Below the pieces are notes generated by a model. That model was not told where the DNA came from. It saw nothing but the letters and a program-made list of their open reading frames with translations, and did not search any database. From positions 77,864 to 141,863 of the IMG/VR virus record IMGVR_UViG_3300002054_000021: a DNA stretch of 64,000 bases. One strand, written 5' to 3'. The DNA comes from a virus. Taxonomy: Duplodnaviria > Heunggongvirae > Uroviricota > Caudoviricetes. Made by a program: the position numbers and the translations under genes. This document shows, piece after piece, positions 18,494 through 64,000 of the stretch; within the stretch, counting starts at the first letter, position 1, and every line of letters starts with the position of its first letter.

Positions 18494-18578
18494 TTTGACA
18501 GCAGGCTATTTTTATGATAAACATATAAAAATTAAAAAAAATATAAAATAAAATTTAAGAATCTGGGGAGATGATAAA

Positions 18579-30355: not shown

Positions 30356-30422
30356 AAATTTATCGTTGACAATACCATTTTATTACTTATTAGGGGTTAA
30401 GATCAAAAATAAGGTAATAATT

Positions 30423-31580
30423 ATGGCAGACGATGTTAAAGAAGTTGCTTCAAATAATACAAAATACAACTACAGTGGCGGCACGGTTAGGATTAGCTCT
30501 GGTAAGTCTGTTGAAGATTTTCTTCTTCCTGATTTTTATAAGCTTTGCTTATGTCCTCTTACGGGCTTCTATCTTGAAATCGTCCCTCCTTTTAAAGTTC
30601 CATCAAAAGTTTATGGTCAAGTCGAGGGGAGAATAGATACTATCTTAAACACATATGACGCTGTTAAAGATAAGAATCTTGGCGTACTTCTTGACGGTAT
30701 AAAGGGTTGTGGAAAAACTTTATTGATGAATTCTCTATGTGATAAAATGGTTAATTATAATAATGTCCCAGTCATATCTATATCTGACAGATTTGGCGGC
30801 GGTAATTTTGTAAGTTTTATAAACTCCATAGATCAAGATTGCGTTATAGCGTTTGATGAGTTTGAGAAAATATATTGCACAAGCGACAAAGACCACCTGC
30901 CAAGCATTCTTGAGCTTCTAGATGGCCAAAGCAGGTCCCATAAAATGTTCCTATTTACTTGTAATGATTCATATAGGATGACCCAGTACCTGCAAAATAG
31001 ACCTAGTAGGATAAGGTATAGGTATAGGTATGGTTATCTGGATGCAGAAATTGTCAATGAGATTGTTGGCGATATGATTATCGAAAAGAAAAGACTAAAT
31101 GAAGTCTCTACATTTATCAACTCTATAGGCAATGTAACTTTTGATATAGTAATCGCCATGATATCTGAGATTAATCTATATCCTAAAGATTCACTTTCCG
31201 ATATATTCTCAAGAATGAATGTTGAAATGTCTAACGAAAGAGAGAATTTCACTATTGTTGGATTCAACAAGGGTGAGAAGATTAAATCTGAAGATATTGA
31301 TTTTCCAGACTTTTCTTTGCAGGATAGTAATAAAGATTTATATTATGGTAGAGTTAGGGGCTTAAGTGAATTCGATATGAACCACTGTGTAATAGATCCT
31401 AACGACGAGGAGAATGTTCTGCTTGATGAGGAAATGATCTTTACTTGGATGGACGCAGACTTAAATCGTAGCGATTATTCTAAGCACAAATATGTGTTCA
31501 AGAAAGGTCATTATTCTATGATTATACAAAAAAATGAAAATACAGCATTTACATTTGCTGATGCTTACTTCAAACTGTAG
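30423..31580 (+). CDS. AAA+ ATPase
   Basis: Walker A GIKGCGKT and Walker B VIAFDEFE. ATG at 30423 preferred over the track's 30366, which overlaps a TTGACA -35 element. Confidence 0.55.
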   Translation: MADDVKEVASNNTKYNYSGGTVRISSGKSVEDFLLPDFYKLCLCPLTGFYLEIVPPFKVPSKVYGQVEGRIDTILNTYDAVKDKNLGVLLDGIKGCGKTLLMNSLCDKMVNYNNVPVISISDRFGGGNFVSFINSIDQDCVIAFDEFEKIYCTSDKDHLPSILELLDGQSRSHKMFLFTCNDSYRMTQYLQNRPSRIRYRYRYGYLDAEIVNEIVGDMIIEKKRLNEVSTFINSIGNVTFDIVIAMISEINLYPKDSLSDIFSRMNVEMSNERENFTIVGFNKGEKIKSEDIDFPDFSLQDSNKDLYYGRVRGLSEFDMNHCVIDPNDEENVLLDEEMIFTWMDADLNRSDYSKHKYVFKKGHYSMIIQKNENTAFTFADAYFKL

Positions 31581-48960: not shown

Positions 48961-48989
48961 TTGACGTATTATTTTATTTTTGTTATGAA
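48961..48989 (+). promoter_or_regulatory. sigma70-like promoter TTGACG-17-TATGAA for infC
   Basis: Lies 47 nt upstream of the IF3 start. Confidence 0.4.
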
Positions 48990-49035
48990 TGAGTCGTTCA
49001 ATAAAGAAAAGGTAAAACATGTTGAAAGTAAAACG

Positions 49036-49518
49036 ATGAGCAAGCCGCTTATTAATGAGATGATTACGGCGCGGGAAGTGTTGTTAATTCAAGAAGATGG
49101 TAAAAGCGATGGGGTGTGCTCTATCTTAGACGCATTAGAATATGCTAAAAGTGTCGAGTTAGATCTTGTTCAAGTGAACAATAACGCAACCCCTACATGC
49201 CGAGTTATGGATTATTCTCGCAAAAGCTTTCAGAAGAAGAAAAACAAAGGTGGTGGCCGCAAAATTAAATTGAAAGAAATTAAACTGCGTCCTAATATCT
49301 CTCAACATGATCTAGACACTAAGTTTAGAAGCATGGATAAGTTTTTCAGTAAGGGAGACCGTGTTAAAATTAGCGTTCAGTTCCGTGGCCGTGAAATATC
49401 TCATATCGAAAAAGGCAATGAGCTTATTGAAAAAATAAAAGAGAGATTCTCTGAAATCAATATTCATGCCGACTCTAAGCGTGATGGAAAAACTATCACA
49501 ATGGTTCTATCTCCATAG
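49036..49518 (+). CDS. infC: translation initiation factor IF-3 homologue
   Basis: INEMITAREV, CRVMDY and IKLKEIKLRP...VQFRGREISH...TITMVLSP align with the N- and C-domains of bacterial IF3. ATG at 49036 is the first in-frame ATG after the promoter. The track's 48961 start includes the promoter. Confidence 0.7.
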   Translation: MSKPLINEMITAREVLLIQEDGKSDGVCSILDALEYAKSVELDLVQVNNNATPTCRVMDYSRKSFQKKKNKGGGRKIKLKEIKLRPNISQHDLDTKFRSMDKFFSKGDRVKISVQFRGREISHIEKGNELIEKIKERFSEINIHADSKRDGKTITMVLSP

Positions 49519-49696: not shown

Positions 49697-49972
49697 TTAA
49701 TTAAACGGTGACTCAGGGACGCCTCTTTGAGTCATCGATGCTAACATGCCTTGCATATCTTGAAATATTTTCTTTTCGGATATTATTTCCACCGCATAAG
49801 CGTCAATGAAAGATTCGAATACGGATTGATCGTCAAAATCCCATATCACCTCTTCATCGTTAGACAAGAAGAATGATATTGATTGCTCTACTCCACTAAC
49901 CCTAACATTCTCAACCTTATGGGTTGGCAATAGATCATTGTCATATGGTCTCTCTGGGTGTCTTATAATCAT
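49697..49972 (-). CDS. hypothetical protein (- strand)
   Basis: AGGAGAGGG RBS on the - strand. Has its own promoter. Confidence 0.5.
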   Translation of the reverse strand: MIIRHPERPYDNDLLPTHKVENVRVSGVEQSISFFLSNDEEVIWDFDDQSVFESFIDAYAVEIISEKKIFQDMQGMLASMTQRGVPESPFN

Positions 49973-50019: not shown

Positions 50020-50073
50020 ATAATTACATATGAAAAAATATTTATCACTTGACAAACTTTTTTATTTTTCTTG

Positions 50074-50102
50074 TTGACTCTGGGTTCTAATGATGTATTT
50101 AG
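50074..50102 (+). promoter_or_regulatory. conserved early-type promoter cassette (TTTATTTTTCTTGTTGACT)
   Basis: First member of the 8-copy cassette class. Confidence 0.5.
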
Positions 50103-50133
50103 GATGAAATTGATATTGAAAAGGTGGATTATT

Positions 50134-50457
50134 ATGAAAGATTTTTATATTGGTACTGTTAATGCTAGTGGCGGTTGGCAAAGGACTTATGGAGTTCATG
50201 CCGAATCTCCAGAGCAAGCTTTAGAATTAATGAAGAATGGAAATTCAACTCACTTTTACGACGATCTTTTAGAGGCGGACTGTCAATATGAAGATTCTAT
50301 GAGCATAGATGATATAGAGCTGGGAGATGAGATTCGCATGGCAGACACTCAAAAAGAAGCTCCGCAAGCAGCTTGGGATACTCTTCGCAAATTCAAAGAT
50401 AAGTGGTATTGCCCTAAAGCAATCCGTAACGCTATAAATCAGATAGCTTACATTTAG
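50134..50457 (+). CDS. hypothetical protein
   Basis: ATG after AAGGTGG. The track's 50071 start lies inside the promoter. Confidence 0.5.
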   Translation: MKDFYIGTVNASGGWQRTYGVHAESPEQALELMKNGNSTHFYDDLLEADCQYEDSMSIDDIELGDEIRMADTQKEAPQAAWDTLRKFKDKWYCPKAIRNAINQIAYI

Positions 50458-50465
50458 GAATAATT

Positions 50466-50597
50466 ATGTCTAATAATATTATTAAAAATCATGTCCCAGA
50501 ATGTCCTGAGTGTGGACAAAACACTAACATTGATTGTGAAAATGGAGGTCAAGAGGTCATTTGTCCTTGTGGTCTTGGGTGGGAAAACGAGGAATAA
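50466..50597 (+). CDS. small zinc-ribbon protein (43 aa)
   Basis: Motif CPECG...CPCG. AGGA RBS. Confidence 0.4.
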   Translation: MSNNIIKNHVPECPECGQNTNIDCENGGQEVICPCGLGWENEE

Positions 50598-50599
50598 TT

Positions 50600-50860
50600 A
50601 TGTCTAGAATTTATGTATATGTTACAGACACTGATGACGGCGTTGATATTAATCACTATCTTTCCAAAGATGAGTACTTAAAGCAGGTCAAAGCAGATTT
50701 AACTGAGGTCTGGAGTGTTGACAATCTTGGCGATATGCCTGAAGATTTATCAGCGGCATATGAAATTTATTCTGAAGATAGAAATAATGGAGACCTTGAC
50801 AATCCTTATTTTTGGTTTGAACATATTATTGAATTAGACGCTGGGATGCTAGAGGATTAA
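50600..50860 (+). CDS. hypothetical acidic protein
   Basis: ATG after GAGGAA. Confidence 0.5.
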   Translation: MSRIYVYVTDTDDGVDINHYLSKDEYLKQVKADLTEVWSVDNLGDMPEDLSAAYEIYSEDRNNGDLDNPYFWFEHIIELDAGMLED

Positions 50861-50864
50861 TAAT

Positions 50865-51074
50865 ATGCCAGATGACAAAAAAGACGAATTCAAGTTCAAA
50901 AAAGACGAACACGGATTAACCAAGATAGAATCAGCTCAGGCTGTTGTTGAAGAGGTTTGCCGCAAAGTTAAAGCAGGTGAGTATAAGCGCGATTCTGTAT
51001 TGCGCGAAATGTTTGTTGCTATTGACTTGCTAGACGAAGCCTGTCAGGAAATAGAAGAAAGTGAGGAAAAATGA
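50865..51074 (+). CDS. hypothetical protein
   Basis: 69-aa ORF. Confidence 0.45.
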   Translation: MPDDKKDEFKFKKDEHGLTKIESAQAVVEEVCRKVKAGEYKRDSVLREMFVAIDLLDEACQEIEESEEK

Positions 51075-51160
51075 GAATATTTTGGGGGTTTGTAACCCTA
51101 ATGGTTTTAGGTGTAATTAGCTTAATCGTGCCAGATAGAAATTAATTTTATTTTTTACTG

Positions 51161-51189
51161 TTGACTCTTTTGTTTTTCACATGTAGGCA
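51161..51189 (+). promoter_or_regulatory. conserved early-type promoter cassette
   Basis: Sequence TTTTATTTTTTACTGTTGACTC. Confidence 0.5.
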
Positions 51190-51217
51190 AATCCTGCATT
51201 TAAGAAAGGAATCAACT

Positions 51218-51580
51218 ATGCAAATGTATTCATTCCCCGAAGAGGTAGATTATGAACCCGAATATACAGGGTCTTTTGATGAATGGCAAAAGAGAGAGGA
51301 AGATCCCAAAGCTAGGCTAATTAAATGGCTTAAAGAAAATGATTTTAATGGCCCTAACACTGGTAAGATATATTATACTCCAAGAGGCGATGGGTCAGCT
51401 ATGTATATGATAGCTCATGCGACTCATGGCTCTGGCAGGAAATCTGGATTAATGCATTTGCCTTATGGTGATGCGTGGGATTGTCCTAATATTCAATATA
51501 TCCCGCAAAAGGTTATATTTGAATCTGTCAATCAGCCAAGTATTGCAGACATGCTTGCAAAGCATAAAGAAAGCACATAG
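51218..51580 (+). CDS. hypothetical protein
   Basis: ATG after AAAGGA. Confidence 0.5.
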   Translation: MQMYSFPEEVDYEPEYTGSFDEWQKREEDPKARLIKWLKENDFNGPNTGKIYYTPRGDGSAMYMIAHATHGSGRKSGLMHLPYGDAWDCPNIQYIPQKVIFESVNQPSIADMLAKHKEST

Positions 51581-51627
51581 AATTTCTTGCGGGTAGTTTT
51601 CAAACTTTCCAGTACCGCAAGCGATAG

Positions 51628-51660
51628 CGGCTCCGTAATGATGCGGGGCCGTTTTCTTTT
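51628..51660 (+). terminator. rho-independent terminator
   Basis: CGGCTCCG-8nt-CGGGGCCG hairpin followed by TTTTCTTTT. Confidence 0.5.
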
Positions 51661-51688
51661 GTCTTAATGATATTTTTTATTTTTCTTG

Positions 51689-51717
51689 TTGACTCTATAT
51701 TTAATTCATGGTTTAAC
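51689..51717 (+). promoter_or_regulatory. conserved early-type promoter cassette plus CAACAAAACAAAAGGA leader
   Basis: Directly follows the terminator at 51628. Confidence 0.5.
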
Positions 51718-51743
51718 AAGGTAACAAAACAAAAGGAATTGAT

Positions 51744-52547
51744 ATGTCAGTATTAAACGGAATTCGTGAACGGGCTATAGAGCGCTTTAATAATGGTGAG
51801 CGCAACAAAGTCTTAACGTCACAAAATGCTAAGATTATGAAAAGTGAGAAGCTTGGATATCTTACAACTGGCATTCATTTGTCACCCGCAAAATTGGTTA
51901 GCAAGAAAACTTTATGTCCGCATGCGTCAAAAGGTTGTGAGGCGGCTTGCTTGAATCAGGCAGGTCAAGCGCAATTACACTTTGTACGCAAAACGGGCAG
52001 ATTTACAGGCTTGAATATTCCACAAGAGAGTCGCGCCCTTCGCACGATATGGTATGAATTAGACCGCCCTTCATTCATGGCTCAATTACGCAAAGAATTA
52101 AAAGCGTTTGTAAAAAAAGCGGAACGTGAAGGCCTTAACCCCGTTGCAAGACTCAACCTTACATCGGATATTGCTTGGCACAGAACGGGCATTATGCAAG
52201 AGTTTCCAATGATTCAGTGGATGGACTATACAGCAAATCTCTATAATGACAAATTGCCAGAAAACTATCATCTTACATTCTCTAAAAAAGAGGATAATGA
52301 TTTACGTGTTCAAGAGGCAATAAATCGCGGAATGAATGTAGCTATCGTATTTGCAGATATGCCAGATACTTATATGGGACTCCCTGTAATTGATGGAGAC
52401 AATGACGATTTGAGATTCTTGGATAATAACGGCGAACAATGTATAGTAGGACTAAAAGCAAAAGGCCCCGCTAGAAAAGATAATAGTGGATTCGTTGTTC
52501 AAGATAATAAAAAGACTTACACACTTATTGATAAATTAGCGGCGTAA
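51744..52547 (+). CDS. hypothetical Cys-containing protein
   Basis: 267-aa ORF with motif CPHASKGCEAAC. Confidence 0.5.
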   Translation: MSVLNGIRERAIERFNNGERNKVLTSQNAKIMKSEKLGYLTTGIHLSPAKLVSKKTLCPHASKGCEAACLNQAGQAQLHFVRKTGRFTGLNIPQESRALRTIWYELDRPSFMAQLRKELKAFVKKAEREGLNPVARLNLTSDIAWHRTGIMQEFPMIQWMDYTANLYNDKLPENYHLTFSKKEDNDLRVQEAINRGMNVAIVFADMPDTYMGLPVIDGDNDDLRFLDNNGEQCIVGLKAKGPARKDNSGFVVQDNKKTYTLIDKLAA

Positions 52548-52650
52548 ATTAACGCCCTTAATATCCTCAGTGATTAAAACACCATCCTTTAAATGTTTCT
52601 TTATAGCCTGCCTTGATATATTGAAGTGTTTAGAGGCTTGGTGCCAGTTA

Positions 52651-53253
52651 TTAAAAAAACATACCGTTTATTTTTATTTGCTCATGATCTTCACATCTGT
52701 AATAATCTTTATTTGAAACAGAATATATTCTGGAAGTCAATGTAGCAATATTAATACCTTCTGCTTCTGCTGCAAGTCTTATTGTTTTGAATTTTCCATA
52801 GGGAGTTATGACAGGGTTTCTGTTCTGCTTAGATCTTCTCCCTTTTTTAGATACTCCAGTCATCCACCTGTTAATCGTCCCTTTAGATAAACCTAAATCC
52901 TTAGCTGCGGCTTTCTGTGATATATATGTGACTCCGTTTATAGTACATTCTTTATTGGTGCCGCTTAATTCTGGAGTTAAGCAACCTTTACCACCGCAAA
53001 CTTTATTATAACAGTCCTCTTGATTAACAACATTTTGAGTTACGATCTTGGACTCATATTTATAGGCGTCGTCAGCATTATCAAACTCAGATAATATTTT
53101 CATATGAAAATTTTCTTTACCGTATTCTTTTAATGCTTTTTTGAAATCTTTACCACTACCCAGATACGTGCACGGAGAGCAGTTACAAGAATGCTTTCCA
53201 ATATAGTATTTACCATTGACAAGGTTAGTAGTTTTATAGACAATATGTTTCAT
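52651..53253 (-). CDS. GIY-YIG homing endonuclease with IENR/NUMOD-type C-terminal DNA-binding helices
   Basis: N-terminus KTTNLVNGKYYIGKHS...YLGSG. GGGGAA RBS. Paralogue of the gene at 63181. Confidence 0.65.
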   Translation of the reverse strand: MKHIVYKTTNLVNGKYYIGKHSCNCSPCTYLGSGKDFKKALKEYGKENFHMKILSEFDNADDAYKYESKIVTQNVVNQEDCYNKVCGGKGCLTPELSGTNKECTINGVTYISQKAAAKDLGLSKGTINRWMTGVSKKGRRSKQNRNPVITPYGKFKTIRLAAEAEGINIATLTSRIYSVSNKDYYRCEDHEQIKINGMFF

Positions 53254-53377
53254 GCTGAATTCCCCAACGAATTTAGATTTGGCGGAGTCTGATCACTCGC
53301 GGCCAATATTTTTATATATGAAATAATTATACCATATAGAACGCTATAAATCAACTGAAAATAATTTATTTTTCCTG

Positions 53378-53406
53378 TTGACATAGCCAATTCATTGTCG
53401 TAAAAA
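53378..53406 (+). promoter_or_regulatory. conserved early-type promoter cassette plus CAACAAAACGAAAAGGA leader
   Basis: -35 element TTGACA at 53378. Confidence 0.5.
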
Positions 53407-53434
53407 GAATCAACAAAACGAAAAGGAACACATC

Positions 53435-53956
53435 ATGGGTCAGTATTACTCTCCAGTTATCTTAAGCGATAATAAAAAAGAAGTCTTAAAGACAATTTAT
53501 TCACATGACTTTGGCAACGGGTTAAAGTTGATGGAGCATTCATATCTTGAAAATGAATTTGTCGCCACATTTGAAAGTGAAATTATTGATAGCCCAAAGC
53601 GTATAGTTTGGGCGGGTGATTACGCCGATGAAGAGAATGGTGAGGATTATAATCTTTATAATCTTGCGGATGACGCGCCTAAACTTACAAAGCTTAATAC
53701 ATCTTCTATGGAGACTAACTTTCTCATTAACCACGACAAAAAATTATATGTTGATAAAGCAAAAATTAAGGTTGGTATGTTTGACCTTAGAATCCACCCT
53801 TTGCCATTATTAACTTGTGAGGGCAATGGTCGCGGTGGTGGTGATTATCGCGGTGACAGTGATTTAGTCGGCACATGGGCGCGTGACAATATTAGTTGCT
53901 CAAAAGAAAAACCAGAAGGCTTTGAAGAGTTAATCTTTGATTTAGTCGAGGAATAG
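53435..53956 (+). CDS. hypothetical protein
   Basis: 173-aa ORF. Confidence 0.5.
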   Translation: MGQYYSPVILSDNKKEVLKTIYSHDFGNGLKLMEHSYLENEFVATFESEIIDSPKRIVWAGDYADEENGEDYNLYNLADDAPKLTKLNTSSMETNFLINHDKKLYVDKAKIKVGMFDLRIHPLPLLTCEGNGRGGGDYRGDSDLVGTWARDNISCSKEKPEGFEELIFDLVEE

Positions 53957-53957
53957 C

Positions 53958-54401
53958 ATGATAGATTTTTCTGAAAACGAAAAAATTATAATCAGTAAGT
54001 TTGACAATCTTTTAGAATATCAGAAAAAAAGACTTGCAATTATTCTTATAGGAGACACCTTAAACGGGTTGGCACTTAGTGATATTGGAAAACATTTTAT
54101 TGAGAAGCATCAAGATCAAGTCGCTCAAGAGCACTCTGTTACTTGCTCAATTCATAATGAACGCAGAAATAGTGACGGCACTTGTGATAGCTGTGAGTTT
54201 AATGAAAAGTGGGAAGGCCCTACGGATCATAATGGCGAACCCATTTTATTTCTAAATCATTATACGTGTCCGACATGTAAACATAAATGGGAAGATGAAT
54301 ACTCTTGCCAAGTTGATGGTGAATGTCCACAATGTAGCGCGGGGCCTATTGAACCCCATACGTCAGAAGATATAAACCAAGAGTTTTTACCAAAGGATTA
54401 A
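53958..54401 (+). CDS. hypothetical Cys-rich protein
   Basis: Motifs CPTC and CPQC. Confidence 0.45.
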   Translation: MIDFSENEKIIISKFDNLLEYQKKRLAIILIGDTLNGLALSDIGKHFIEKHQDQVAQEHSVTCSIHNERRNSDGTCDSCEFNEKWEGPTDHNGEPILFLNHYTCPTCKHKWEDEYSCQVDGECPQCSAGPIEPHTSEDINQEFLPKD

Positions 54402-54403
54402 AA

Positions 54404-54607
54404 ATGAGTGAGCATTCAAGAAGACAAGTCAGTGATAAAATAAATTGGAAGCTTCTCAGAGAGCAAAAGGACTGGCTACTTTCTCAGACTGATGAGCCAG
54501 ACTTGACAATGGCTACAGGTCTTATTGGTTTAATTGATGAAATTCAAGATATAGCTGTTGACTATGAGGGAATACCAAGTGAAACTGTTTTTGGTTTTGC
54601 TAAATAA
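54404..54607 (+). CDS. hypothetical protein
   Basis: 67-aa ORF. Confidence 0.4.
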   Translation: MSEHSRRQVSDKINWKLLREQKDWLLSQTDEPDLTMATGLIGLIDEIQDIAVDYEGIPSETVFGFAK

Positions 54608-54796
54608 AATATGGAGAGTAAATCTGCATGCCTGTCACCTACGTTTCGTGGTAAGAGACATAGGACTAGTCTGGGTGACTATGGGCAGAAGTTGGTATGA
54701 TTTGTTGTTATCTAGCTATGGTGCACAAGTAGCTTTTTAATTCCGTTGGTTCAAATCCTTCACTCTCTACCAAAATTTTTATATAAGGAATAAATT

Positions 54797-55057
54797 ATGA
54801 AAGTCTCAGAACTAATAAAAAAATTGAGTGGTCTTGATGGAGACCTTCCAGTTATAATGTCGAGAGACCCAGAGGGCAATGGATTCTCAAAACTTGCAAG
54901 TGACGGCATTACTGTTTACATGGCGGATGTGACTGATAACTTTATTGATGAAGTTAAAATATGTGAGATAACGGATCAACATAGAAAAATTGGTTACACT
55001 GATGAAGATGTGGGAGACCCAGAGACTATGACAAAATGTCTAGTACTTTGGCCATAA
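54797..55057 (+). CDS. hypothetical protein
   Basis: 86-aa ORF. Confidence 0.45.
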   Translation: MKVSELIKKLSGLDGDLPVIMSRDPEGNGFSKLASDGITVYMADVTDNFIDEVKICEITDQHRKIGYTDEDVGDPETMTKCLVLWP

Positions 55058-55092
55058 TTTTCGCATCTTTATATATGCATGATTCGCATCTT
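55058..55092 (+). repeat. two TTTTCGCATCTT-type motif copies (55058-55069, 55082-55092)
   Basis: Upstream of AGGAG and the ATG at 55106. Confidence 0.6.
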
Positions 55093-55105
55093 TAGGAGAC
55101 GTATA

Positions 55106-55348
55106 ATGAACGCCTTTAAAAAACTTATAGATAAAAATTTAACAATAACAAAGCGTGAAAACTTTGAAAAAATGGTGGAGTTCGCCGTACATGAGAAGCA
55201 ATTATCTGAAATTAAAGGCGACTACGTACTGCACAATGTGTTCCTTGTTAGTGAAGATCAGTATATTTATATAAGCGATTCTTTAAGCCATCTTTTAACG
55301 TTTGCTGATTTAACTTATGATGAAAACGGTATACACATAGGAGAGTGA
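55106..55348 (+). CDS. hypothetical protein
   Basis: ATG after AGGAGAC. The track's 55079 start would translate the motif repeat. Confidence 0.5.
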   Translation: MNAFKKLIDKNLTITKRENFEKMVEFAVHEKQLSEIKGDYVLHNVFLVSEDQYIYISDSLSHLLTFADLTYDENGIHIGE

Positions 55349-55350
55349 AT

Positions 55351-55440
55351 ATGAGAATTTTAATGTTTGGAATTTTATATATGATGATCAATGTGGGAAA
55401 ATTTGTTGCTTTTGCAGCGCTAATGATGGGTGGTGAATAA
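55351..55440 (+). CDS. 29-aa hydrophobic peptide
   Basis: GGAGAG RBS. Confidence 0.3.
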   Translation: MRILMFGILYMMINVGKFVAFAALMMGGE

Positions 55441-55454
55441 ATTTTATTTTGTTG

Positions 55455-55483
55455 TTGACATTAAATAATCAATAGCGTAATAC
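55455..55483 (+). promoter_or_regulatory. conserved early-type promoter cassette plus AACAAAACAAAAAGGA leader
   Basis: -35 element TTGACA at 55455. Confidence 0.5.
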
Positions 55484-55512
55484 AGTCCTAACAAAACAAA
55501 AAGGATTGCACT

Positions 55513-57795
55513 ATGCGAATCGAAGAAAGAACTAATGATTTTGCTTACAGTAATACAGTAGGTATTAAAGCACATGTTGGTAATGCAAGAGCTATTATCG
55601 CCATGCTTGCCAATATTTATGAAAACCCTGCGCTAGCCTTTATTCGAGAGATGGCATGTAATGCTTATGACGCTCATGTCATGGCAGATAACCTAGATAA
55701 GTCTTTCGACTTGCACTTTCCCACAAAAGATAATCCTAATCTTATTATCAGAGATTATGGAACTGGACTCTCAAAAGAGTTTATGGAAACGCGCTATACA
55801 TCTGTTGGCGATTCAACAAAAAAGAATAGCGATGATGAAATTGGCGGATTCGGTATCGGGCGACTTAGCTTCCTTTCAGTAACTGAAATGGCTATTGTCA
55901 CTTCTTACTATGAAGGCATGAAATATGCTTATAATGTAAGCCGTGACGAGAATCTTGATTTGTGCTTTTTTCCAATGGGTGAAGAGGAAACTGATGAACC
56001 TAACGGCCTTGAAATTATATTCACGCCTACGCAAGACGTTATTTACAAAACTATCGAGGCGTCAAAAGATTTTTTCAAAAGATTTAAAATGATGCCTAAC
56101 CTAACTGGCGCTGTTGTTCCGTTAGTTAGTATGGATTATGCTTTCGAGAATGAAAAATGGGGTGTTAGAAACGGGCCTTCATACGAGAATCAATTGAATG
56201 TGGTTATGGGTGGTGTTGCTTATCCTGTTAATCGGACACTAGCAGGTAATGATATATTTTCAGGTGTTGAAAATTTGATCGAGTCAAATATAGATTTATT
56301 CTTTAACATAAGTGATATTCAGCTTGCCCCTTCAAGAGAAGGTGTTATGCAAACTGACGACACTCTTAAAAAGATTGCCTCAAGACTTAATGAGATTAAA
56401 GATTATTATTTAGAATCATATCGCGATGGGCTGTCTAAGATTAATTTCTTACATGAAAAAAAGATATTCTTTTCTAAGTTTATTGTAGGTTTGCCAAATG
56501 GTGTAAATTCTCTTATCCGCTCTATTGCACGTAAAGAGGATTGCGGAGATTTAACGGAAATTAGCGTAAAGTTTCAACCGCACCGTATGAAGCTTAAGCA
56601 ATTTTATGAAACAAGAAAATTAGACAAGGCGGGTAACGTAGTAAGAGATTCTAATGACGAACCTGTTATGGAAACAAAGTCTAGAATAGTTGATGGGGAT
56701 TATGCCTATCGCTTTCATGAAAAAAGCTCATACCGCACTAGGTCTTGGAATACTGCGCACCGTTGGGATAAATCAACAACAAGCATGATTAAGATCAATT
56801 CGGAATTATTACATAGACAAAAATTTATCCTTATGGATATAGAGGATAGGTCTTGGAAGGCTACTATTGAACATAATTATGGCGATGATGACGGAGTTAG
56901 AGCCATCTATATGGGTAAAAGACAGAGTGACTTTAAGGCTATATTAAAACATATGACTAAGTTTGGTTTTAAGCCTAGTCAATTCACTAGACTTTCTGAA
57001 TTAGAAAAAAAGCCGCGTGTTAGGAAATTGCTTAACGGACGTAATTTTAGACGTAACAATATTAGCGACTCAACGTCTGGATCATTTTCCTCTTATAGTG
57101 AGGTTCCATTCACTTCGATATCTGAATCAGATGTTGTCTTTGTTGAAACAAATCGCCATGAGGTTGTCTGTCAAGAGTCCATCGAAGCTTTAAGGGACGC
57201 TAGGTTTGCTCATGCGGTGGGATTGTTGAAAAACTTTTCAGTTTACGCTGTGAGTAAATCTTACCTGTCTATGGTTCCTGATAACTGGATTAATATTGTT
57301 GACTATATGAGTGAGATAGATTTGCGGAGTATGAAAAAACTTATTAAATCTCAATACCGCTCTATGGTTATCTGTGAAGGATTAAAAAGTATAAGTTATA
57401 AATTTAAACCCACAGAAGACACTGATGTCCCATATAAAGACGAACATGGCCATGTAAAAATTCTTGCTGTAAGAGAGTATGAATCAAAGCACATGAAGTT
57501 TTTACGTATGGGAAAAAACCTGTCTGTCAATATGCTTAATGATTTAGAGTTCCTTTATGAGCGACATAAAAATGTTCGTGATATGTTCAAAGAAACTAAC
57601 GTAGAAGTTTCAGATGCGCGTGAATGCCTTGACTTGACAAAAAGCAAGATGTCTGCTAACAATATATTAGACCAGAATTATGCTTTTTCTAAAATTCAGG
57701 GCTTTCTGGGAAGTGATGTTCACAATTTCCTATCATCCAAGAAAGACCCCATTGCATTTATCGTTAAGGTCAACAATTTTGTAAGAGGACATTAA
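55513..57795 (+). CDS. GHKL-superfamily ATPase (Hsp90/MORC-like HATPase_c) with 560-aa uncharacterised C-terminal region
   Basis: Bergerat-fold N-box REMACNAYDA, G1 box IRDYGTGLS and G2 box IGGFGIGRLS. Confidence 0.6.
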   Translation: MRIEERTNDFAYSNTVGIKAHVGNARAIIAMLANIYENPALAFIREMACNAYDAHVMADNLDKSFDLHFPTKDNPNLIIRDYGTGLSKEFMETRYTSVGDSTKKNSDDEIGGFGIGRLSFLSVTEMAIVTSYYEGMKYAYNVSRDENLDLCFFPMGEEETDEPNGLEIIFTPTQDVIYKTIEASKDFFKRFKMMPNLTGAVVPLVSMDYAFENEKWGVRNGPSYENQLNVVMGGVAYPVNRTLAGNDIFSGVENLIESNIDLFFNISDIQLAPSREGVMQTDDTLKKIASRLNEIKDYYLESYRDGLSKINFLHEKKIFFSKFIVGLPNGVNSLIRSIARKEDCGDLTEISVKFQPHRMKLKQFYETRKLDKAGNVVRDSNDEPVMETKSRIVDGDYAYRFHEKSSYRTRSWNTAHRWDKSTTSMIKINSELLHRQKFILMDIEDRSWKATIEHNYGDDDGVRAIYMGKRQSDFKAILKHMTKFGFKPSQFTRLSELEKKPRVRKLLNGRNFRRNNISDSTSGSFSSYSEVPFTSISESDVVFVETNRHEVVCQESIEALRDARFAHAVGLLKNFSVYAVSKSYLSMVPDNWINIVDYMSEIDLRSMKKLIKSQYRSMVICEGLKSISYKFKPTEDTDVPYKDEHGHVKILAVREYESKHMKFLRMGKNLSVNMLNDLEFLYERHKNVRDMFKETNVEVSDARECLDLTKSKMSANNILDQNYAFSKIQGFLGSDVHNFLSSKKDPIAFIVKVNNFVRGH

Positions 57796-57796
57796 G

Positions 57797-58759
57797 ATGG
57801 TTAGCATGAAAGAAGGTTCCAAAGTATTAAAAGCGCAACCGACTCGCGGCGCTGTTCCACCTATTATTTTTGATGGAGCGGGAAATATCTTATCGTTTTA
57901 TTTTGACGGAAATCCTTATATGGTAAGAAGTGAGAATATGAATTTCTTGCTGATTAAAGATTTAGTTAAAGAGGGTGAAACATTAAAGCGCGAAGGCAAG
58001 GATGAAGAGTCCGCCCAAAAAATGCAGGATGCAATTAACCTTATTGACCATAAGAAAGCAATGCAGTCACTAACGTATGGACGTATTCAGGTTGTAGGAA
58101 AAGAATTGTATTATTCTGGCGTCCGTGTTGATGATAGATTGACTCAGTTAATGGTTAAGCTTGCAAGACAGAGAGAGAAGTTTGAGCCTCTTGGCAAATT
58201 CCTTGAAAACCTTGCTAACAATGTTAGTGATAGATCGAGAGAGCAACTATTTGATTTTATTGAAAGGCATTTATTTTCTATTACACCAGATGGAAAATTC
58301 TTAGCGTATAAAGTTGTTCGTAGTGATTATACGGATTGCCATACTGGAACATTTGACAATAGTGTTGGAATTACTGTTGAAATAGACAGAAGTGAGGTTG
58401 ATGACAATCCTAACAGGACTTGTTCTCATGGATTGCACGTATGTGGAAAGAGCTACATTAACTCATTTAGGCGCGGTAGTAATAGACTATTGCTAGTCGA
58501 GGTTGACCCTAAAGATGTCGTGTCTGTTCCAACTGATTACAACGGCGCTAAAATGAGAGTTTGTAAATATCGAGTAATAGAAGAGCTTGATGATGTTTAT
58601 GAAAATGACAATGTTGGTATTGTTATTGACACTAACAAAAAGACTCGCCGCGATGCAAAGGGAAGATTCCTTCCTGCTAAAGTCTATACCCCATTGCGTG
58701 GTGAGGATGGGAAATTTATTCCAGACACAAATAATTTAAACAAATGTTTGATTTGGTAA
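57797..58759 (+). CDS. hypothetical protein translationally coupled to the GHKL ATPase
   Basis: TAAGATG overlap with the upstream gene. Contains CSHGLHVCGKSY. Confidence 0.5.
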   Translation: MVSMKEGSKVLKAQPTRGAVPPIIFDGAGNILSFYFDGNPYMVRSENMNFLLIKDLVKEGETLKREGKDEESAQKMQDAINLIDHKKAMQSLTYGRIQVVGKELYYSGVRVDDRLTQLMVKLARQREKFEPLGKFLENLANNVSDRSREQLFDFIERHLFSITPDGKFLAYKVVRSDYTDCHTGTFDNSVGITVEIDRSEVDDNPNRTCSHGLHVCGKSYINSFRRGSNRLLLVEVDPKDVVSVPTDYNGAKMRVCKYRVIEELDDVYENDNVGIVIDTNKKTRRDAKGRFLPAKVYTPLRGEDGKFIPDTNNLNKCLIW

Positions 58760-58860
58760 TAGAACATCGTCACCGAGAGGATTTGTTACCCTTGAAGACG
58801 TGACGGCACAGAGGGGCGGTGTCTAGGTTTAATCGCCATGTTGGATACTGCCCCTTGAAA

Positions 58861-58872
58861 TTTTCGCATCTT
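58861..58872 (+). repeat. TTTTCGCATCTT motif copy
   Basis: 28 nt upstream of the ATG at 58901. Confidence 0.6.
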
Positions 58873-58900
58873 TACAGGTGCGCACATATGGAGAAGTGAA

Positions 58901-59344
58901 ATGAAGTATATATGTTTTCTTGCTTGGGCTTTCTTATTTATAAGCATGTCTTTTGATTTTGGCGGCAATATGCTTTCGATTGTAGGATCACTTACAAGTG
59001 ATAAGGATTCTGCGATTGACTCTATAGATATAGTGACTTCATTTGTCGGGTTTATTGCTATCATTTACCCCATTATTCTCATGGTTGAATCAGAGAAAAT
59101 TAATAGTAAATGGAAAAAGTCTAAAAAAACTGTTAACGAACTGATAGACGAGCGGGATAATATTGAGGCGGATTTAAATACACTCAAAAAGAAAACTGAT
59201 AGTCAAATTGAAGACTTAAGAGGAAAGCTTGAACATGCAAATTCTCAAACGATAGAATCTTATGAGACGTTCACTAAGCTTAGAGATTTTGAGGAAATAG
59301 AGAAGCTTGCTTTAGCTGAAAGAAAAGCCGTTGACGAGGGTTAA
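58901..59344 (+). CDS. membrane protein with coiled-coil C-terminus
   Basis: GGAGAAG RBS and two transmembrane segments. Confidence 0.5.
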   Translation: MKYICFLAWAFLFISMSFDFGGNMLSIVGSLTSDKDSAIDSIDIVTSFVGFIAIIYPIILMVESEKINSKWKKSKKTVNELIDERDNIEADLNTLKKKTDSQIEDLRGKLEHANSQTIESYETFTKLRDFEEIEKLALAERKAVDEG

Positions 59345-59359
59345 TTTTTATTTTTGTTC

Positions 59360-59388
59360 TTGACTCCCTTTATTGAATATTGTAATTT
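59360..59388 (+). promoter_or_regulatory. conserved early-type promoter cassette
   Basis: Sequence TTTTTATTTTTGTTCTTGACTCC. Confidence 0.5.
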
Positions 59389-59415
59389 TAATGCAGTATT
59401 CAAAAGGGAATCAAA

Positions 59416-59898
59416 ATGACTAAAAAAGCACATATTCATACGCACACATTATCTATTGAGGGCGATGTTCCAGATCATGTCTTTAAGGACATAATAAAAA
59501 CTGGCAACAAAATTATCAAATCATTCAATGAAGAGAATAGATATTCTGGCATTGTTGTAAATTGCGGTAAAGAAAAATTTAAAAAGAAAAAGAAAAAGAT
59601 ACAGGTTAACGGCCTAGGTATTAGGTCTTATGAAACATTCTACATAAAACCTGAATTAATGATTAACGGCACTGTTCACACCTGCAAAACTAACGATGAG
59701 ACATATGATGGTGCTGTTGGCGCTATATGTATGATGGCAGAAGCGCTTTCTGGTGGTCTTATTAAGTACACTGGTGGTAATTTTCGCAATAAACGCCCAA
59801 AATACGAGAGAGTTTTACATAAATCTATAGGATTCGCCACAAATACCGCTTTATGGCCTAATAAAGAAGGTGAAATACGAGCAATATCAACAACATAG
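59416..59898 (+). CDS. hypothetical protein
   Basis: 160-aa ORF. Contains an (AAAAAG)x3 tract. Confidence 0.5.
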   Translation: MTKKAHIHTHTLSIEGDVPDHVFKDIIKTGNKIIKSFNEENRYSGIVVNCGKEKFKKKKKKIQVNGLGIRSYETFYIKPELMINGTVHTCKTNDETYDGAVGAICMMAEALSGGLIKYTGGNFRNKRPKYERVLHKSIGFATNTALWPNKEGEIRAISTT

Positions 59899-59929
59899 AT
59901 AAAAAATGCATTATTTTTGCTTTTTATTG

Positions 59930-59958
59930 TTGACACCTAGGATTTATTATTCTATAAA
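59930..59958 (+). promoter_or_regulatory. promoter TTGACA-17-TATAAA
   Basis: Best-fitting consensus promoter in the window. No ORF follows it. Confidence 0.55.
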
Positions 59959-59963
59959 ATGAA

Positions 59964-60078
59964 CATCGGCAAAGTCCTCCCCTGATTAGCCGATCCGCGA
60001 TCCCCGACCTCCCCTTTGGGTTGATCGCACACCTTGGCTCCTTCTGGCTCCCCCTTTGCCAGTTGGGGCCATTTTTTT
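59964..60078 (+). ncRNA. candidate small non-coding RNA 1 (about 114 nt)
   Basis: Promoter, then a C/U-rich GC-enriched segment with no ORF, then a hairpin plus T7 terminator at 60047-60078. Confidence 0.4.
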
Positions 60079-60081
60079 ACA

Positions 60082-60110
60082 TTGACTAAAGGTTAATAAA
60101 ATTGTATATA
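60082..60110 (+). promoter_or_regulatory. promoter TTGACT-17-TATATA
   Basis: Sits immediately after the terminator of candidate sRNA 1. Confidence 0.5.
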
Positions 60111-60116
60111 TAAGAT

Positions 60117-60266
60117 CCAGTCACACTCCATGCACAGCTTTATGTTAGAGAGGCTTGCAAGAGACTATGATGCTACTTCGTGTCTGGAAGTTGGTTATGG
60201 CCATTTGGGAAGTGAATAGTCTCAATCTAACGTAAACTAGGTCGCTCTTTGAGCGGCCTTTTTTAT
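60117..60266 (+). ncRNA. candidate small non-coding RNA 2 (about 150 nt)
   Basis: Only a 29-codon ORF without RBS. Ends at the GGTCGCTC-TTTG-AGCGGCC plus T6 terminator at 60240-60266. Confidence 0.4.
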
Positions 60267-60274
60267 TTTTCTTG

Positions 60275-60303
60275 TTGACAATCTATGTAAACTATGCGAA
60301 AAG
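60275..60303 (+). promoter_or_regulatory. conserved early-type promoter cassette plus CAACAAACGAAAG leader
   Basis: -35 element TTGACA at 60275. Confidence 0.5.
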
Positions 60304-60330
60304 AGAATCAACAAACGAAAGATTATTAAT

Positions 60331-63180: not shown

Positions 63181-63912
63181 TTAGAGTGTAGCGTTCTTCG
63201 CTACACTTTCATTTTTGATTTTAGGTACTCTTCCAGAATTTACACACTTTACTATAGTTGTGCGGTGAACTTGAAAATATTCAGCAGCCTCTTTTGTTGA
63301 TTTAAATAAAATTCCACCTAAGGTGAAATTCTTCATATTTTTCCTAAGGTAATTTGATCTTCCATTATTTTTTGCCCATCTTTTAATTGTGTTAGTGCTA
63401 ACCTTAAAATGCCTAGCGGCATCGCTATAAGATTTAAATACAATACTATCTATCACAACTTGTATAGCGTCCTTACCTCCCTTTTTTAAAGAAAGTGATT
63501 TTCCTCCTTTAGATATCCATCTCGCTATAGTTTTATTACTGACACAAAAATGTCTAGCGGCGGCTCCGTATGACTTAAAATATATGTCATCTATAGTACA
63601 TCCTATAGACCTCCTGCTTTCATTAACGTAGCAACCCTTGCCTCCGTTTATCCCGTTGTAACATTCATTTGAATCTATCATCTCTTTAGTTATAATATCG
63701 GACTCGTATTGGTAAGCCTCTTCTTCTGTCTCAAAATGCAATAAGACTTCTTTGCAAAAGTTATGCTCTCCGTATTTTTCTATTGCTTTCAATAAAGCAT
63801 AACCAGACCCTAAGTACGAACATTGATCCCCGCACCTATTAGAACAAGAATGCTTTCCAATATAGTATTTACCATTGACCAAGTTAGTAGTTTTATATAC
63901 TGTATGTTTCAT
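63181..63912 (-). CDS. GIY-YIG homing endonuclease with three or four IENR/NUMOD repeats
   Basis: N-terminus MKHTVYKTTNLVNGKYYIGKHS. GGGG RBS. Upstream cassette is shared with the gene at 52651. Confidence 0.65.
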   Translation of the reverse strand: MKHTVYKTTNLVNGKYYIGKHSCSNRCGDQCSYLGSGYALLKAIEKYGEHNFCKEVLLHFETEEEAYQYESDIITKEMIDSNECYNGINGGKGCYVNESRRSIGCTIDDIYFKSYGAAARHFCVSNKTIARWISKGGKSLSLKKGGKDAIQVVIDSIVFKSYSDAARHFKVSTNTIKRWAKNNGRSNYLRKNMKNFTLGGILFKSTKEAAEYFQVHRTTIVKCVNSGRVPKIKNESVAKNATL

Positions 63913-64000
63913 GCTGATAACCCCTAACGGTTTTTAGATTCAGGGGAAGTTACCGCTTCGCGCCTGATATTTTTTATATATGAATTTATTATAGCACGAA

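What the first reader, a model, noticed from the sequence alone, without database searches (positions are those of the whole stretch)
50060..60303. Eight copies of a conserved promoter/leader cassette driving small early-like genes
The upstream sequence TTTATTTTTCTTGTTGAC(T/A) (A/T tract plus -35) recurs at 50074, 51161, 51689, 53378, 55455, 59360, 59930 and 60275. The -10 regions are variable or weak. Four cassettes (51689, 53378, 55455, 60275) also share a leader, (AT)CAACAAAAC(G/A)AAAAGGA, that supplies the RBS. The cassette therefore appears to have been duplicated as a promoter-plus-5'UTR unit in front of unrelated genes. The strong -35 and UP-like tract with an indifferent -10 may signal dependence on a phage factor or on the RNAP alpha C-terminal domain.
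Basis: seen in the sequence. Interest (0 to 1): 0.55.

Follow-up and report, generated by a model that had tools for sequence, protein, structure and literature searches.

The report
Early promoter array of a jumbo phage
A near-identical 24-base block recurs before unrelated genes and small RNAs in an uncultured 208-kb phage, and it behaves like a set of host-polymerase promoters with a shared short mRNA leader, which is a real but ordinary kind of phage regulatory architecture.

Summary
At least five more copies lie just past the window end, giving 13 or more in about 24 kb.

Conservation falls into blocks with sigma70 geometry:
- a T-tract plus cTTGTTGACwCT, at -51 to -28;
- a 17-nt spacer fixed in length but free in sequence;
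- a residual -10 (T at -15, TA at -12/-11, T at -7 in only 1 of 13);
- an A exactly 7 nt after the hexamer in 12 of 13.

The A-rich leader AACAAAAC(R)AAAAGG starts at that A. The -35 lies 55-61 nt from the start codon. Two copies drive structured non-coding RNAs whose first stems begin at the predicted +1.

Related phages place their own TTGACA-N17 promoters before the same orthologous genes (GP88, rIIA). One lineage and Xanthomonas phage Xoo-sp13 have canonical -10 hexamers.

Best reading: a host-RNA-polymerase, probably early, promoter array with an UP-like tract. This is a new member of a known kind (T4 early promoters and PeSLs, phage CBB). Duplication as a unit and dependence on a factor or on alpha-CTD remain untested. 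The host is unknown.

The parts
50058..50133 (+). Cassette 1. T-tract 50058-50073, -35 TTGACT 50074-50079, hexamer ATTTAG 50097-50102 (TG at -15/-14), predicted +1 A 50109, SD AAAAGGTGGA, ATG 50134 (107-aa ORFan). Opens the array just after a divergent minus-strand gene (49697-49972).
51145..51217 (+). Cassette 2. -35 TTGACT 51161-51166, hexamer TAGGCA 51184-51189, predicted +1 G 51196, SD AAGAAAGGA, ATG 51218 (120 aa). It abuts the stop codon of a 24-aa hydrophobic micro-ORF (51071-51145).
51626..51653 (+). Intrinsic-terminator hairpin (12 bp, 7 GC) followed by a T-run, directly upstream of cassette 3.
   Evidence: -17.4 kcal/mol
51673..51743 (+). Cassette 3. -35 TTGACT 51689-51694, hexamer TTTAAC 51712-51717 (TGg before it), +1 A 51724, leader AACAAAACAAAAGGA, ATG 51744 (GP88-family protein, 267 aa).
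53362..53434 (+). Cassette 4. -35 TTGACA 53378-53383, hexamer TAAAAA 53401-53406, +1 A 53413, leader CAACAAAACGAAAAGGA, ATG 53435 (173 aa, phrog_3156). Divergent from the GIY-YIG homing-endonuclease gene 52651-53253 (-).
55439..55512 (+). Cassette 5. -35 TTGACA 55455-55460, hexamer TAATAC 55478-55483, +1 A 55490, leader AACAAAACAAAAAGGA, ATG 55513 (rIIA-like, 760 aa, followed by rIIB 57797-58759). It abuts the stop codon of a 29-aa micro-ORF (55351-55440).
59344..59415 (+). Cassette 6. -35 TTGACT 59360-59365, hexamer TAATTT 59383-59388 (the only one ending in T), +1 A 59395, SD CAAAAGGGA, ATG 59416 (160 aa). It starts right at the TAA stop of the upstream gene.
59914..60078 (+). Cassette 7. 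-35 TTGACA 59930-59935, hexamer TATAAA 59953-59958. It drives a 114-nt structured non-coding RNA (59965-60078) with three hairpins. The first stem starts at the predicted +1 and the last hairpin is a terminator with U7. Each loop carries CCUCCCC or CUCCCCC.
   Evidence: MFE -46 vs -28.2 for shuffles, z -5.9; no Rfam family
60239..60259 (+). Intrinsic-terminator hairpin (9 bp, 6 GC). Its T-run merges into the T-tract of cassette 8.
   Evidence: -14.3 kcal/mol
60259..60330 (+). Cassette 8. -35 TTGACA 60275-60280, hexamer GAAAAG 60298-60303 (TGc before it), +1 A 60310, degraded leader AACAAACGAAAGA, ATG 60331 (99 aa).

Best explanation
The element is an array of promoters read by the host RNA polymerase with its primary (sigma70-type) sigma factor. 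The array drives the early or pre-replicative region of an uncultured 208-kb phage.

**Anatomy of each unit**
- A T-rich tract (-51 to -40) that probably acts as an UP-like contact for alpha-CTD.
- An extended consensus -35 (cTTGTTGACw, then CT).
- A 17-bp spacer.
- A degenerate -10 that keeps T-12/A-11 and often TG at -15/-14, but not T-7.
- An A start site 7 nt after the hexamer.
- A 20-26-nt unstructured A-rich leader, AACAAAAC(R)AAAAGG, that supplies the Shine-Dalgarno sequence.

**How it works.** Strong upstream contacts (UP-like tract, -35, TGn) recruit the polymerase and compensate for the poor -10. Terminators are rare, so the array re-initiates transcription every 0.3-4 kb across at least 24 kb of ORFans, rIIA/rIIB and small RNAs.

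**Shown:** the sequence anatomy, its non-randomness, its placement and its comparative conservation.
**Inferred:** that the host polymerase uses it, the start site, the early timing and the role of alpha-CTD.
For: - **Specificity.** 7 hits against 0.26 expected, with one strand and one region only. There are 13 copies when the contig extension is included.
- **Blockwise information content.** Positions -16 to +7 relative to TTGAC are near-invariant and the spacer is at noise. T at +20 is 11/13 (P 7e-5). TA at +23/+24 is 9/13 each. A at +35 is 12/13 (P 2e-5). This gives the textbook spacing: -35, 17 bp, -10, 6 bp, +1.
- **Fixed placement.** The -35 is 55-61 nt from the start codon, the leader begins 28-29 nt after TTGACW (at the predicted +1), and the leaders are unstructured.
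- **Non-coding transcripts.** Two copies have no ORF and precede structured RNAs whose first stems start at +1 and +3 and which end in U-runs (z -5.9 and -5.4). The block therefore works at the level of transcription, and the start position gains independent support.
- **Comparative evidence.** The relative L052 (61% identity in GP88) has at least 10 ctcTTGACA-N17-TAnnnn units with its own leader, placed before the orthologs of GP88, phrog_3156 and rIIA. L054 has TTGACA-N17-TAATAT/TATGAT. Xanthomonas phage Xoo-sp13 has TTGACA-N16/17-TATAAT, including one before its GP88 ortholog.
- **Gene content typical of early regions.** rIIA/rIIB, ORFans and homing endonucleases.
- **Precedent.** T4 early UP/-35/TGn/-10 promoters (PMC2988021) and RpoD-like promoters with UP-like elements clustered before short early ORFs in jumbo phage CBB (PMC5259590).
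Against: - There are no transcript data, and the host is unknown, so the host promoter consensus cannot be checked.
- The -10 lacks T-7, a key base for E. coli sigma70. It is present in 1 of 13 copies here and 2 of 13 in L052, which is a mild depletion (P 0.026). On E. coli rules these would be poor at open-complex formation.
- The upstream tract is a T-run, whereas the proximal UP consensus is A-rich.
- A second strand-specific motif (TTTTCGCATCTTcA) is interleaved in the same region. Transcription here is therefore not solely from the cassettes, and timing cannot be assigned.
Confidence: 0.75

Rival explanations
1. The repeats matter mainly as PeSL-like recombination modules. In this reading, near-identical promoter (and terminator) cassettes flanking ORFans serve as short homology patches that shuffle, delete and insert early genes. 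This does not exclude promoter function; the question is which role maintains the 24-nt identity.
For: - Three copies share 22-24 of 24 identical bases.
- Each unit brackets one or a few ORFans, often starting at the stop codon of the previous gene.
- Between this phage and L052 only GP88, phrog_3156, rIIA, rIIB and DUF1810 are shared. The small genes between them differ, and DUF1810 has moved.
- PeSLs are described as an AT-rich region, a sigma70-like promoter and an SD, found in hyperplastic regions (PMC4122927).
Against: - The stem-loop that defines a PeSL is present upstream of only 2 of 13 copies.
- Independent assemblies of this phage are 99.8-100% identical over the array and show no cassette-bounded indels.
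- No pair of close relatives was available in which breakpoints could be mapped to cassettes.
Confidence: 0.12
2. The conserved block is recognised by a phage-specific component and not by unaided host holoenzyme. Candidates are an injected or early factor that helps melt a -10 lacking T-7, or a regulator that binds the T-tract/TTGTTGAC block and turns early transcription on or off.
For: - Conservation of the upstream 24 nt far exceeds what -35 recognition needs, including CT after the hexamer and an exact T-tract register.
- T-7 is if anything avoided in two lineages (3 of 26, P 0.026).
- A T4 precedent exists for factor-modulated early promoters, namely Alt modification of alpha (PMC2988021).
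Against: - The invariant core is exactly the sigma70 -35 at exactly 17 bp from a TA-containing hexamer.
- Relatives and Xoo-sp13 use canonical -10 hexamers at orthologous positions.
- No candidate factor was identified in the window.
- A distinct, better candidate for a phage-specific promoter exists: TTTTCGCATCTTcA.
Confidence: 0.1
3. The T-rich block is chiefly a transcript-end or processing signal for the upstream gene (a terminator U-tract or an RNase site), and TTGAC is incidental.
For: - Two copies sit right after GC-rich hairpins, so their T-tract doubles as the terminator U-run.
- Several copies start at the upstream stop codon.
Against: - 11 of 13 copies have no hairpin.
- TTGAC is invariant in 13 of 13, and the downstream geometry (TA at 17 bp, A at +35, fixed distance to the ATG) is unexplained by a 3'-end signal.
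- Copy 1 follows a divergent gene, so there is no upstream transcript to end.
Confidence: 0.03

Closest known systems
PeSL (promoter-early stem-loop) cassettes of T4-type phages (Arbiol et al. 2010, PMC2839356; Comeau et al. 2014, PMC4122927)
   Same: A repeated composite unit of AT-rich tract, sigma70-like promoter and SD/start codon. It sits in the intergenic gaps of a variable early region full of ORFans, and its consensus is lineage-specific.
   Different: The stem-loop or terminator component is present in only 2 of 13 copies. The -10 is degenerate, whereas RB49/phi1 PeSLs are near-perfect TTGACA-N17-TATAAT. No recombination evidence was found here. The phage is not T4-like.
T4 early promoters, the 'uber' UP/-35/TGn/-10 class (Hinton 2010, PMC2988021)
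   Same: Many co-oriented strong promoters with conservation beyond the hexamers, an upstream A/T tract and frequent TGn. They drive pre-replicative genes, including rIIA/rIIB.
   Different: The T4 -35 is GTTTAC-like and its -10 is an excellent TATAAT. Here the -35 is a perfect TTGAC(A/T), the -10 keeps only TA, and there is a T-run in place of phased A-tracts.
RpoD-like promoters with UP-like elements in the early region of jumbo phage vB_PcaM_CBB (Buttimer et al. 2017, PMC5259590)
   Same: Found by sequence alone. A consensus promoter preceded by an UP-like element is concentrated upstream of short hypothetical ORFs taken to be early genes. Further phage-specific promoter motifs occur elsewhere in the genome.
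   Different: A different phage lineage and consensus. No shared 5' leader is reported there.
E. coli UP element and the -35/TGn promoter class (Estrem et al. 1998, cited in PMC5259590; classes in PMC2988021)
   Same: An A/T-rich tract at -40 to -60 adjacent to a consensus -35. TG at -15/-14 compensates for a weak -10.
   Different: The tract is T-rich on the non-template strand at -48 to -40, where the proximal UP consensus is A-rich (consensus recalled from memory). Binding of alpha-CTD was not tested.
TTGACA-N17 promoters of related uncultured phages (L052, L054) and of Xanthomonas phage Xoo-sp13 (MN047793)
   Same: The same geometry and the same positions before orthologous genes (GP88, phrog_3156, rIIA), each with a lineage-specific leader carrying the SD.
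   Different: These phages have no T-tract block. L054 and Xoo-sp13 have canonical -10 hexamers ending in T. Some L052 units place the ATG at the predicted +1, which implies leaderless transcripts.

Membership tests
sigma70-type (-35/-10) bacterial promoter | -35 hexamer close to TTGACA | tested here: met
   TTGAC is invariant in 13 of 13 copies. The sixth base is A in 5 and T in 8.
sigma70-type (-35/-10) bacterial promoter | Spacer of 17 +/- 1 bp to a -10 hexamer close to TATAAT, with A-11 and T-7 | tested here: inconclusive
   At exactly 17 bp, T-12 is 9/13 and A-11 is 9/13, but T-7 is only 1/13. T at -15 is 11/13 and TG at -15/-14 is 6/13.
sigma70-type (-35/-10) bacterial promoter | Purine start site 6-8 nt after the -10 hexamer | tested here: met
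   A is present 7 nt after the hexamer in 12 of 13 copies (P 2e-5). Two non-coding RNAs start their structure there. This is sequence-level evidence only.
sigma70-type (-35/-10) bacterial promoter | Transcription by host primary-sigma holoenzyme from that start site | not testable with these tools
   There are no RNA data, and the host is unidentified.
UP element | A/T-rich tract between -40 and -60 adjoining the -35 | tested here: met
   Positions -51 to -40 are W-only, and nine of them are invariant or nearly invariant T.
UP element | Stimulation through alpha-CTD and match to the SELEX consensus | not testable with these tools
PeSL (T4-type promoter-terminator cassette) | AT-rich region, sigma70-like promoter and SD/start codon as one repeated unit | tested here: met
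   definition taken from PMC4122927.
PeSL (T4-type promoter-terminator cassette) | Stem-loop (terminator) immediately upstream of the promoter | tested here: not met
   Only 2 of 13 copies (51689 and 60275) have a stable hairpin.
PeSL (T4-type promoter-terminator cassette) | Association with insertion, deletion or replacement breakpoints between close relatives | tested here: inconclusive
   Gene content between cassettes differs from L052. No relative is close enough to map breakpoints, and other assemblies of the same phage are identical.
T4 early promoter consensus | -35 GTTTAC-like, TGn and an excellent TATAAT | tested here: not met
   The -35 is TTGAC(A/T) and the -10 is degenerate. Consensus as described in PMC2988021 and PMC4122927.

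The most novel reading that the evidence does not exclude
The cassette may define a non-canonical early-promoter class. It combines a perfect -35 with a rigid T-tract and a -10 that keeps only T-12/A-11 and avoids T-7, and this is shared by two diverged lineages (this phage and L052). Open-complex formation would then need a phage-delivered helper, or a host sigma factor that reads -7 differently. The shared 5' leader that starts at +1 would be a common operator for post-transcriptional control of the whole early class. The same neighbourhood encodes an IF3 homolog and a conserved early small RNA with three anti-Shine-Dalgarno-like loops.
Probability: 0.1. Interest if true: 0.6.

Novelty: new member of a known kind. 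Interest (0 to 1): 0.28.

Why it matters
The array gives a clean, testable map of about 13 transcription units, with predicted start sites to the nucleotide, for the early region of an uncultured jumbo phage. It shows two interleaved promoter-like motif classes that could be used to annotate the relatives of this phage. The strong UP-like/-35 block combined with a -10 lacking T-7 is a natural test set for how far upstream contacts can replace -10 recognition. As a category, conserved host-type early promoters in front of ORFans are well known in phages, so the finding is useful annotation and not a surprise.

Tried and rejected
- **Public DNA relatives.** Megablast of 49-61 kb against 50,697 phage records found no match. 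Blastn of one cassette gave only E~9 noise.
- **IMG/VR scans.** I scanned for the 18-mer, for cassette plus leader, and for promoter plus sRNA motif. The results were single chance hits or nothing.
- **JGI metagenome scan.** The cassette-plus-leader pattern returned six unrelated single promoters.
- **rIIA relatives in IMG/VR.** None were found.
- **A Felix-O1-like relative.** L049 (42% identity in rIIB) has no cassette array.
- **Alternative -10 registers.** I examined spacers of 15, 16, 18 and 19 bp by eye and through column counts. None recovers a T-ending hexamer.
- **The sRNA as a regulator of the leaders.** I tested whether the C-rich sRNA targets cassette leaders. Duplex energies for cassette-led initiation regions (mean -17.2) are no better than for other genes (-18.4), so the idea is rejected.
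- **Paralogy of downstream genes.** This would explain the repeats by gene duplication. Only one DUF1281_C pair is related.
- **Host identification.** Searching genomes with the IF3 homolog gave 38% identity to Cloacimonadota MAGs, which is not informative. A literature search on the sample accessions found nothing.
- **Rfam.** Searches of the non-coding stretches found no family.
- **Literature on the second motif.** Nothing relevant was found.


Full report

Yes. The 19-mer TTTATTTTTCTTGTTGACW, with up to three mismatches, occurs seven times. All seven are on the + strand between 50061 and 60280. The expectation is 0.26, and none of 100 dinucleotide-preserving shuffles reaches 7. The eighth copy, at 51145-51166, has a one-base register shift in the T-tract. 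It is recovered by a shorter pattern and by a position weight matrix. The matrix scores family members at 23.7-32.9 bits, and the best other site anywhere in the 64 kb scores 18.3. The coordinates in the finding are the first T of TTGAC.

**2. Where the window comes from**

The window is part of an uncultured phage genome. The rIIB-like protein at 57797-58759 is encoded on a 208,476-bp metagenomic contig (ENA ERZ27298441 k119_147156). Shorter contigs from three other samples are 99.8-100% identical. GC content is 36%.

The window holds these genes:

| Feature | Position |
|---|---|
| Tail and baseplate genes | 5.8-17 kb |
| T5 A1-like gene | 18579-20150 |
| Recombination and replication genes | about 23-32 kb (UvsX-like 23277-24305; clamp-loader-like ATPase 30366-31580) |
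| IF3 homolog | 48985-49518 |

After a single minus-strand gene (49697-49972) comes a region of small ORFans. It also contains a GP88-family gene, rIIA and rIIB, two GIY-YIG homing endonucleases and tRNAs. No cultured phage is close. The best protein matches are 27-43% identical, to Felix-O1-like phages (rIIA) and to the Xanthomonas and Stenotrophomonas jumbo phages XacN1, Xoo-sp13, CM1 and RAS14.

**3. The family is larger than the finding**

Two fetched pieces of the same contig (L043, L047) extend the sequence to window-equivalent 73912. They contain five more high-scoring copies, at 64313, 66043, 67300, 69552 and 70047, all in the same orientation. The array therefore has at least 13 members in about 24 kb and starts abruptly at 50.06 kb.

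**4. Anatomy**

I aligned the 13 copies on TTGAC. Positions below are relative to the first T of TTGAC.

| Position | Content | Frequency or comment |
|---|---|---|
| -16 to +7 | WWWTTTATTTTTCTTG-TTGACW-CT | Strongly conserved; TTGAC and nine T's invariant |
| +8 to +19 | Spacer | Mostly at noise level |
| +20 | T | 11/13 (P 7e-5) |
| +21 | G | 6/13 |
| +23, +24 | T, A | 9/13 each |
| +28 | T | 1/13 only |
| +35 | A | 12/13 (P 2e-5) |

This is exactly sigma70 geometry. The -35 occupies 0-5, the 17-bp spacer follows, and an extended -10 TG sits at -15/-14. The -10 hexamer occupies 23-28, a 6-nt discriminator follows, and +1 falls at 35.

Seven copies carry the leader AACAAAAC(R)AAAAGG. It starts 28-29 nt after TTGACW, at the predicted +1. 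The remaining ORF-leading copies have shorter A-rich tracts, most ending in GGA or GGG; copy 64313 uses GAGAG instead. The -35 lies 55-61 nt from the start codon in all 11 ORF-leading copies, which gives 20-26-nt leaders that are predicted to be unstructured. Six copies begin at or within a few bases of the stop codon of the preceding ORF. Only two copies (51689 and 60275) follow a terminator hairpin.

**5. Independent support that the block acts in transcription and that the start site is right**

Two copies have no ORF behind them.

- Copy 59930 is followed by a 114-nt RNA (59965-60078). It folds into three hairpins, the last being a terminator with U7 (MFE -46 against -28.2 kcal/mol for shuffles, z -5.9). 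Its first stem starts at nucleotide 1, which is the predicted +1.
- Copy 69552 is followed by an RNA of about 165 nt closed by a 19-bp stem that starts at +3 and ends in a U-run (z -5.4).

A signal used for translation or as a 3' end would not explain these cases.

**6. Comparative evidence**

Homologs of the cassette-led GP88 gene led to related uncultured phages.

- **L052** (61% identical in GP88; it also has rIIA, rIIB, phrog_3156 and DUF1810). It carries at least ten ctcTTGACA-N17-TAnnnn units with its own leader (ATAGGAAAAGGAAA). These include units directly before the orthologs of GP88, phrog_3156 and rIIA. TA is present in 12/13, a purine at +35 in 11/13, and T at hexamer position 6 in only 2/13.
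- **L054** (60% identical). It has TTGACA-N17-TAATAT, TAATCT and TATGAT with the leader ACGAAAtGGAGAATA, so its -10 hexamers are canonical.
- **Xanthomonas phage Xoo-sp13.** It has TTGACA-N16/17-TATAAT promoters in the corresponding region, one of them 56 nt before its GP88 ortholog.

The promoter positions and geometry are therefore conserved across the clade. The T-tract, the leader and the degenerate -10 are lineage-specific. A more distant Felix-O1-like contig (L049) has no such array.

**7. What about 'duplicated as a unit'?**

The downstream proteins are unrelated, apart from one DUF1281_C pair, so the repeats are not by-products of gene duplication. The sequence between the two conserved blocks is not conserved. 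The data therefore fit selection on functional blocks, or an old duplication. They do not demonstrate copying of a promoter-plus-UTR unit.

**8. Mechanism**

The best-supported reading is an array of host-polymerase (primary sigma) promoters. Strong upstream contacts compensate for a poor -10. These contacts are a T-rich UP-like tract, an extended consensus -35 and often TGn. In the classification used for E. coli and T4, this is an UP/-35/TGn-type promoter (PMC2988021). With few terminators, transcription would re-initiate every 0.3-4 kb through the ORFan region. The common A-rich, unstructured leader would give uniform, efficient ribosome loading.

'Early' is inferred from gene content and from analogy with T4 and with jumbo phage CBB, where 18 RpoD-like promoters preceded by an UP-like element cluster before short hypothetical ORFs (PMC5259590).

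The odd point is the absence of T-7. It is present in only 3 of 26 promoters across two lineages (P 0.026). This could reflect tuning for promoter escape, an unusual host sigma factor, or a helper factor. None of these can be tested here, and the host is unknown.

**9. Rivals**

- **A PeSL-like recombination role** (PMC4122927, PMC2839356). It fits the modular layout and the different ORFan content in L052. However, the defining stem-loop is missing in 11 of 13 copies, and no breakpoints could be mapped.
- **A phage-specific factor or regulator site.** This is possible, given the excess conservation upstream and the missing T-7. The invariant core is nevertheless the sigma70 -35 at canonical spacing, and relatives use canonical -10 hexamers.
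- **A pure 3'-end or processing signal.** This is excluded for most copies.

**10. Context noticed**

A second, strand-specific motif, aatTTTCGCATCTTcA.acgt, occurs 22 times on the + strand and never on the - strand between 28.6 and 73.6 kb. It often occurs in tandem. It is conserved in L052 and at the orthologous spot in L046, and as TTTCGCAACTT in L054 and L051. It is a candidate second promoter class or an RNA-level signal, and it serves genes inside the array that lack a cassette (55107 and 58901).

**11. Verdict**

The finding is real, well delimited and largely correctly interpreted. It belongs to a well-known kind of phage architecture, so it is a new member of a known kind. Interest is 0.28. 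The most novel reading that the evidence does not exclude is a non-canonical promoter class lacking T-7 with a shared leader operator. I give that a probability of about 0.1.

Noticed in passing
window 28586-62694 (e.g. 47702, 48548, 48683, 48708, 55060, 55083, 58863, 62648, 62685); also L043/L047 out to window-equivalent 73561; L052 5941, 6111, 11305, 19068; L046 3332: A second conserved motif, aatTTTCGCATCTTcA.acgt, has 22 exact 10-nt cores on the + strand and none on the - strand. It is often in tandem at 25-37-nt spacing and lies 24-43 nt before several start codons and next to tRNA genes. It is conserved in related phages and at an orthologous position (before the gene after rIIB), with the variant TTTCGCAACTT in L054 and L051. 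It is a candidate phage-specific promoter or RNA signal. No literature match was found.
   Followed up: partly
window 59965-60078 (+); L052 about 18138-18235: An early-promoter-driven 114-nt RNA with three hairpins whose loops each carry CCUCCCC or CUCCCCC, which resembles an anti-Shine-Dalgarno sequence (z -5.9). The 11-mer AGUCCUCCCCU recurs 37-38 nt after a TTGACA promoter in relative L052, also inside a hairpin loop. There is no Rfam family. Complementarity to the cassette leaders is not enriched.
   Followed up: partly
window 60082-60268 (+): A further TTGACT-N17-TATATA promoter (60082-60110) drives a non-coding stretch of about 150 nt that ends at terminator 60239-60259. The fold is only weakly better than shuffles (z -1.9).
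   Followed up: partly
L047 4100-4326 (- strand of the locus; window-equivalent 69587-69813): Cassette copy 69552 drives a highly structured RNA of about 165 nt closed by a 19-bp stem and a U-run (MFE -78.7, z -5.4). There is no Rfam match.
   Followed up: partly
window 54611-54776 (+): A non-coding stretch of about 165 nt has a tRNA-like 3' end (GGTTCAAATCC T-loop, then ACTCTCT-ACCA) that pairs with GGAGAGT at its 5' end. ARAGORN and Rfam do not call it, and the overall fold is no better than shuffles (z -0.5). It could be a degenerate or intron-containing tRNA, or a tRNA-like RNA.
   Followed up: partly
window 48985-49518 (+): The phage encodes a full-length translation initiation factor IF3 homolog. 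Both IF3_N and IF3_C score above the Pfam cut-offs. It lies just upstream of the promoter array.
   Followed up: partly
window 52651-53253 (-) and 63181-63912 (-): Two GIY-YIG/NUMOD homing-endonuclease genes lie on the opposite strand inside the array. Their 5' ends share an 81-nt repeat at 90% identity (53185-53265 and 63844-63924). Contigs from other samples break at these repeats.
   Followed up: partly
window 51071-51145 and 55351-55440 (+): Two tiny hydrophobic micro-ORFs (24 and 29 aa) end exactly where cassettes 2 and 5 begin. A similar small membrane-like ORF precedes GP88 in relative L050.
   Followed up: no
L052 19339-19376, 7066-7103, 19903-19940: In the related phage, some TTGACA-N17 promoters place an ATG exactly at the predicted +1. 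The called gene 19374-19661 is one example. This implies leaderless mRNAs.
   Followed up: no
window 18465-18578 (+): The T5 A1-like gene (18579-20150) has its own terminator hairpin plus TTGACA-N17-TAAACA promoter (TTGACA at 18495). It has a different upstream tract and is not a member of the cassette family.
   Followed up: no
L047 2210-2286 (-): ARAGORN reports a tRNA with a four-base anticodon (gatt), and Rfam scores it at 42 bits as a tRNA. It could be a frameshift-suppressor-like tRNA or a miscalled one.
   Followed up: no
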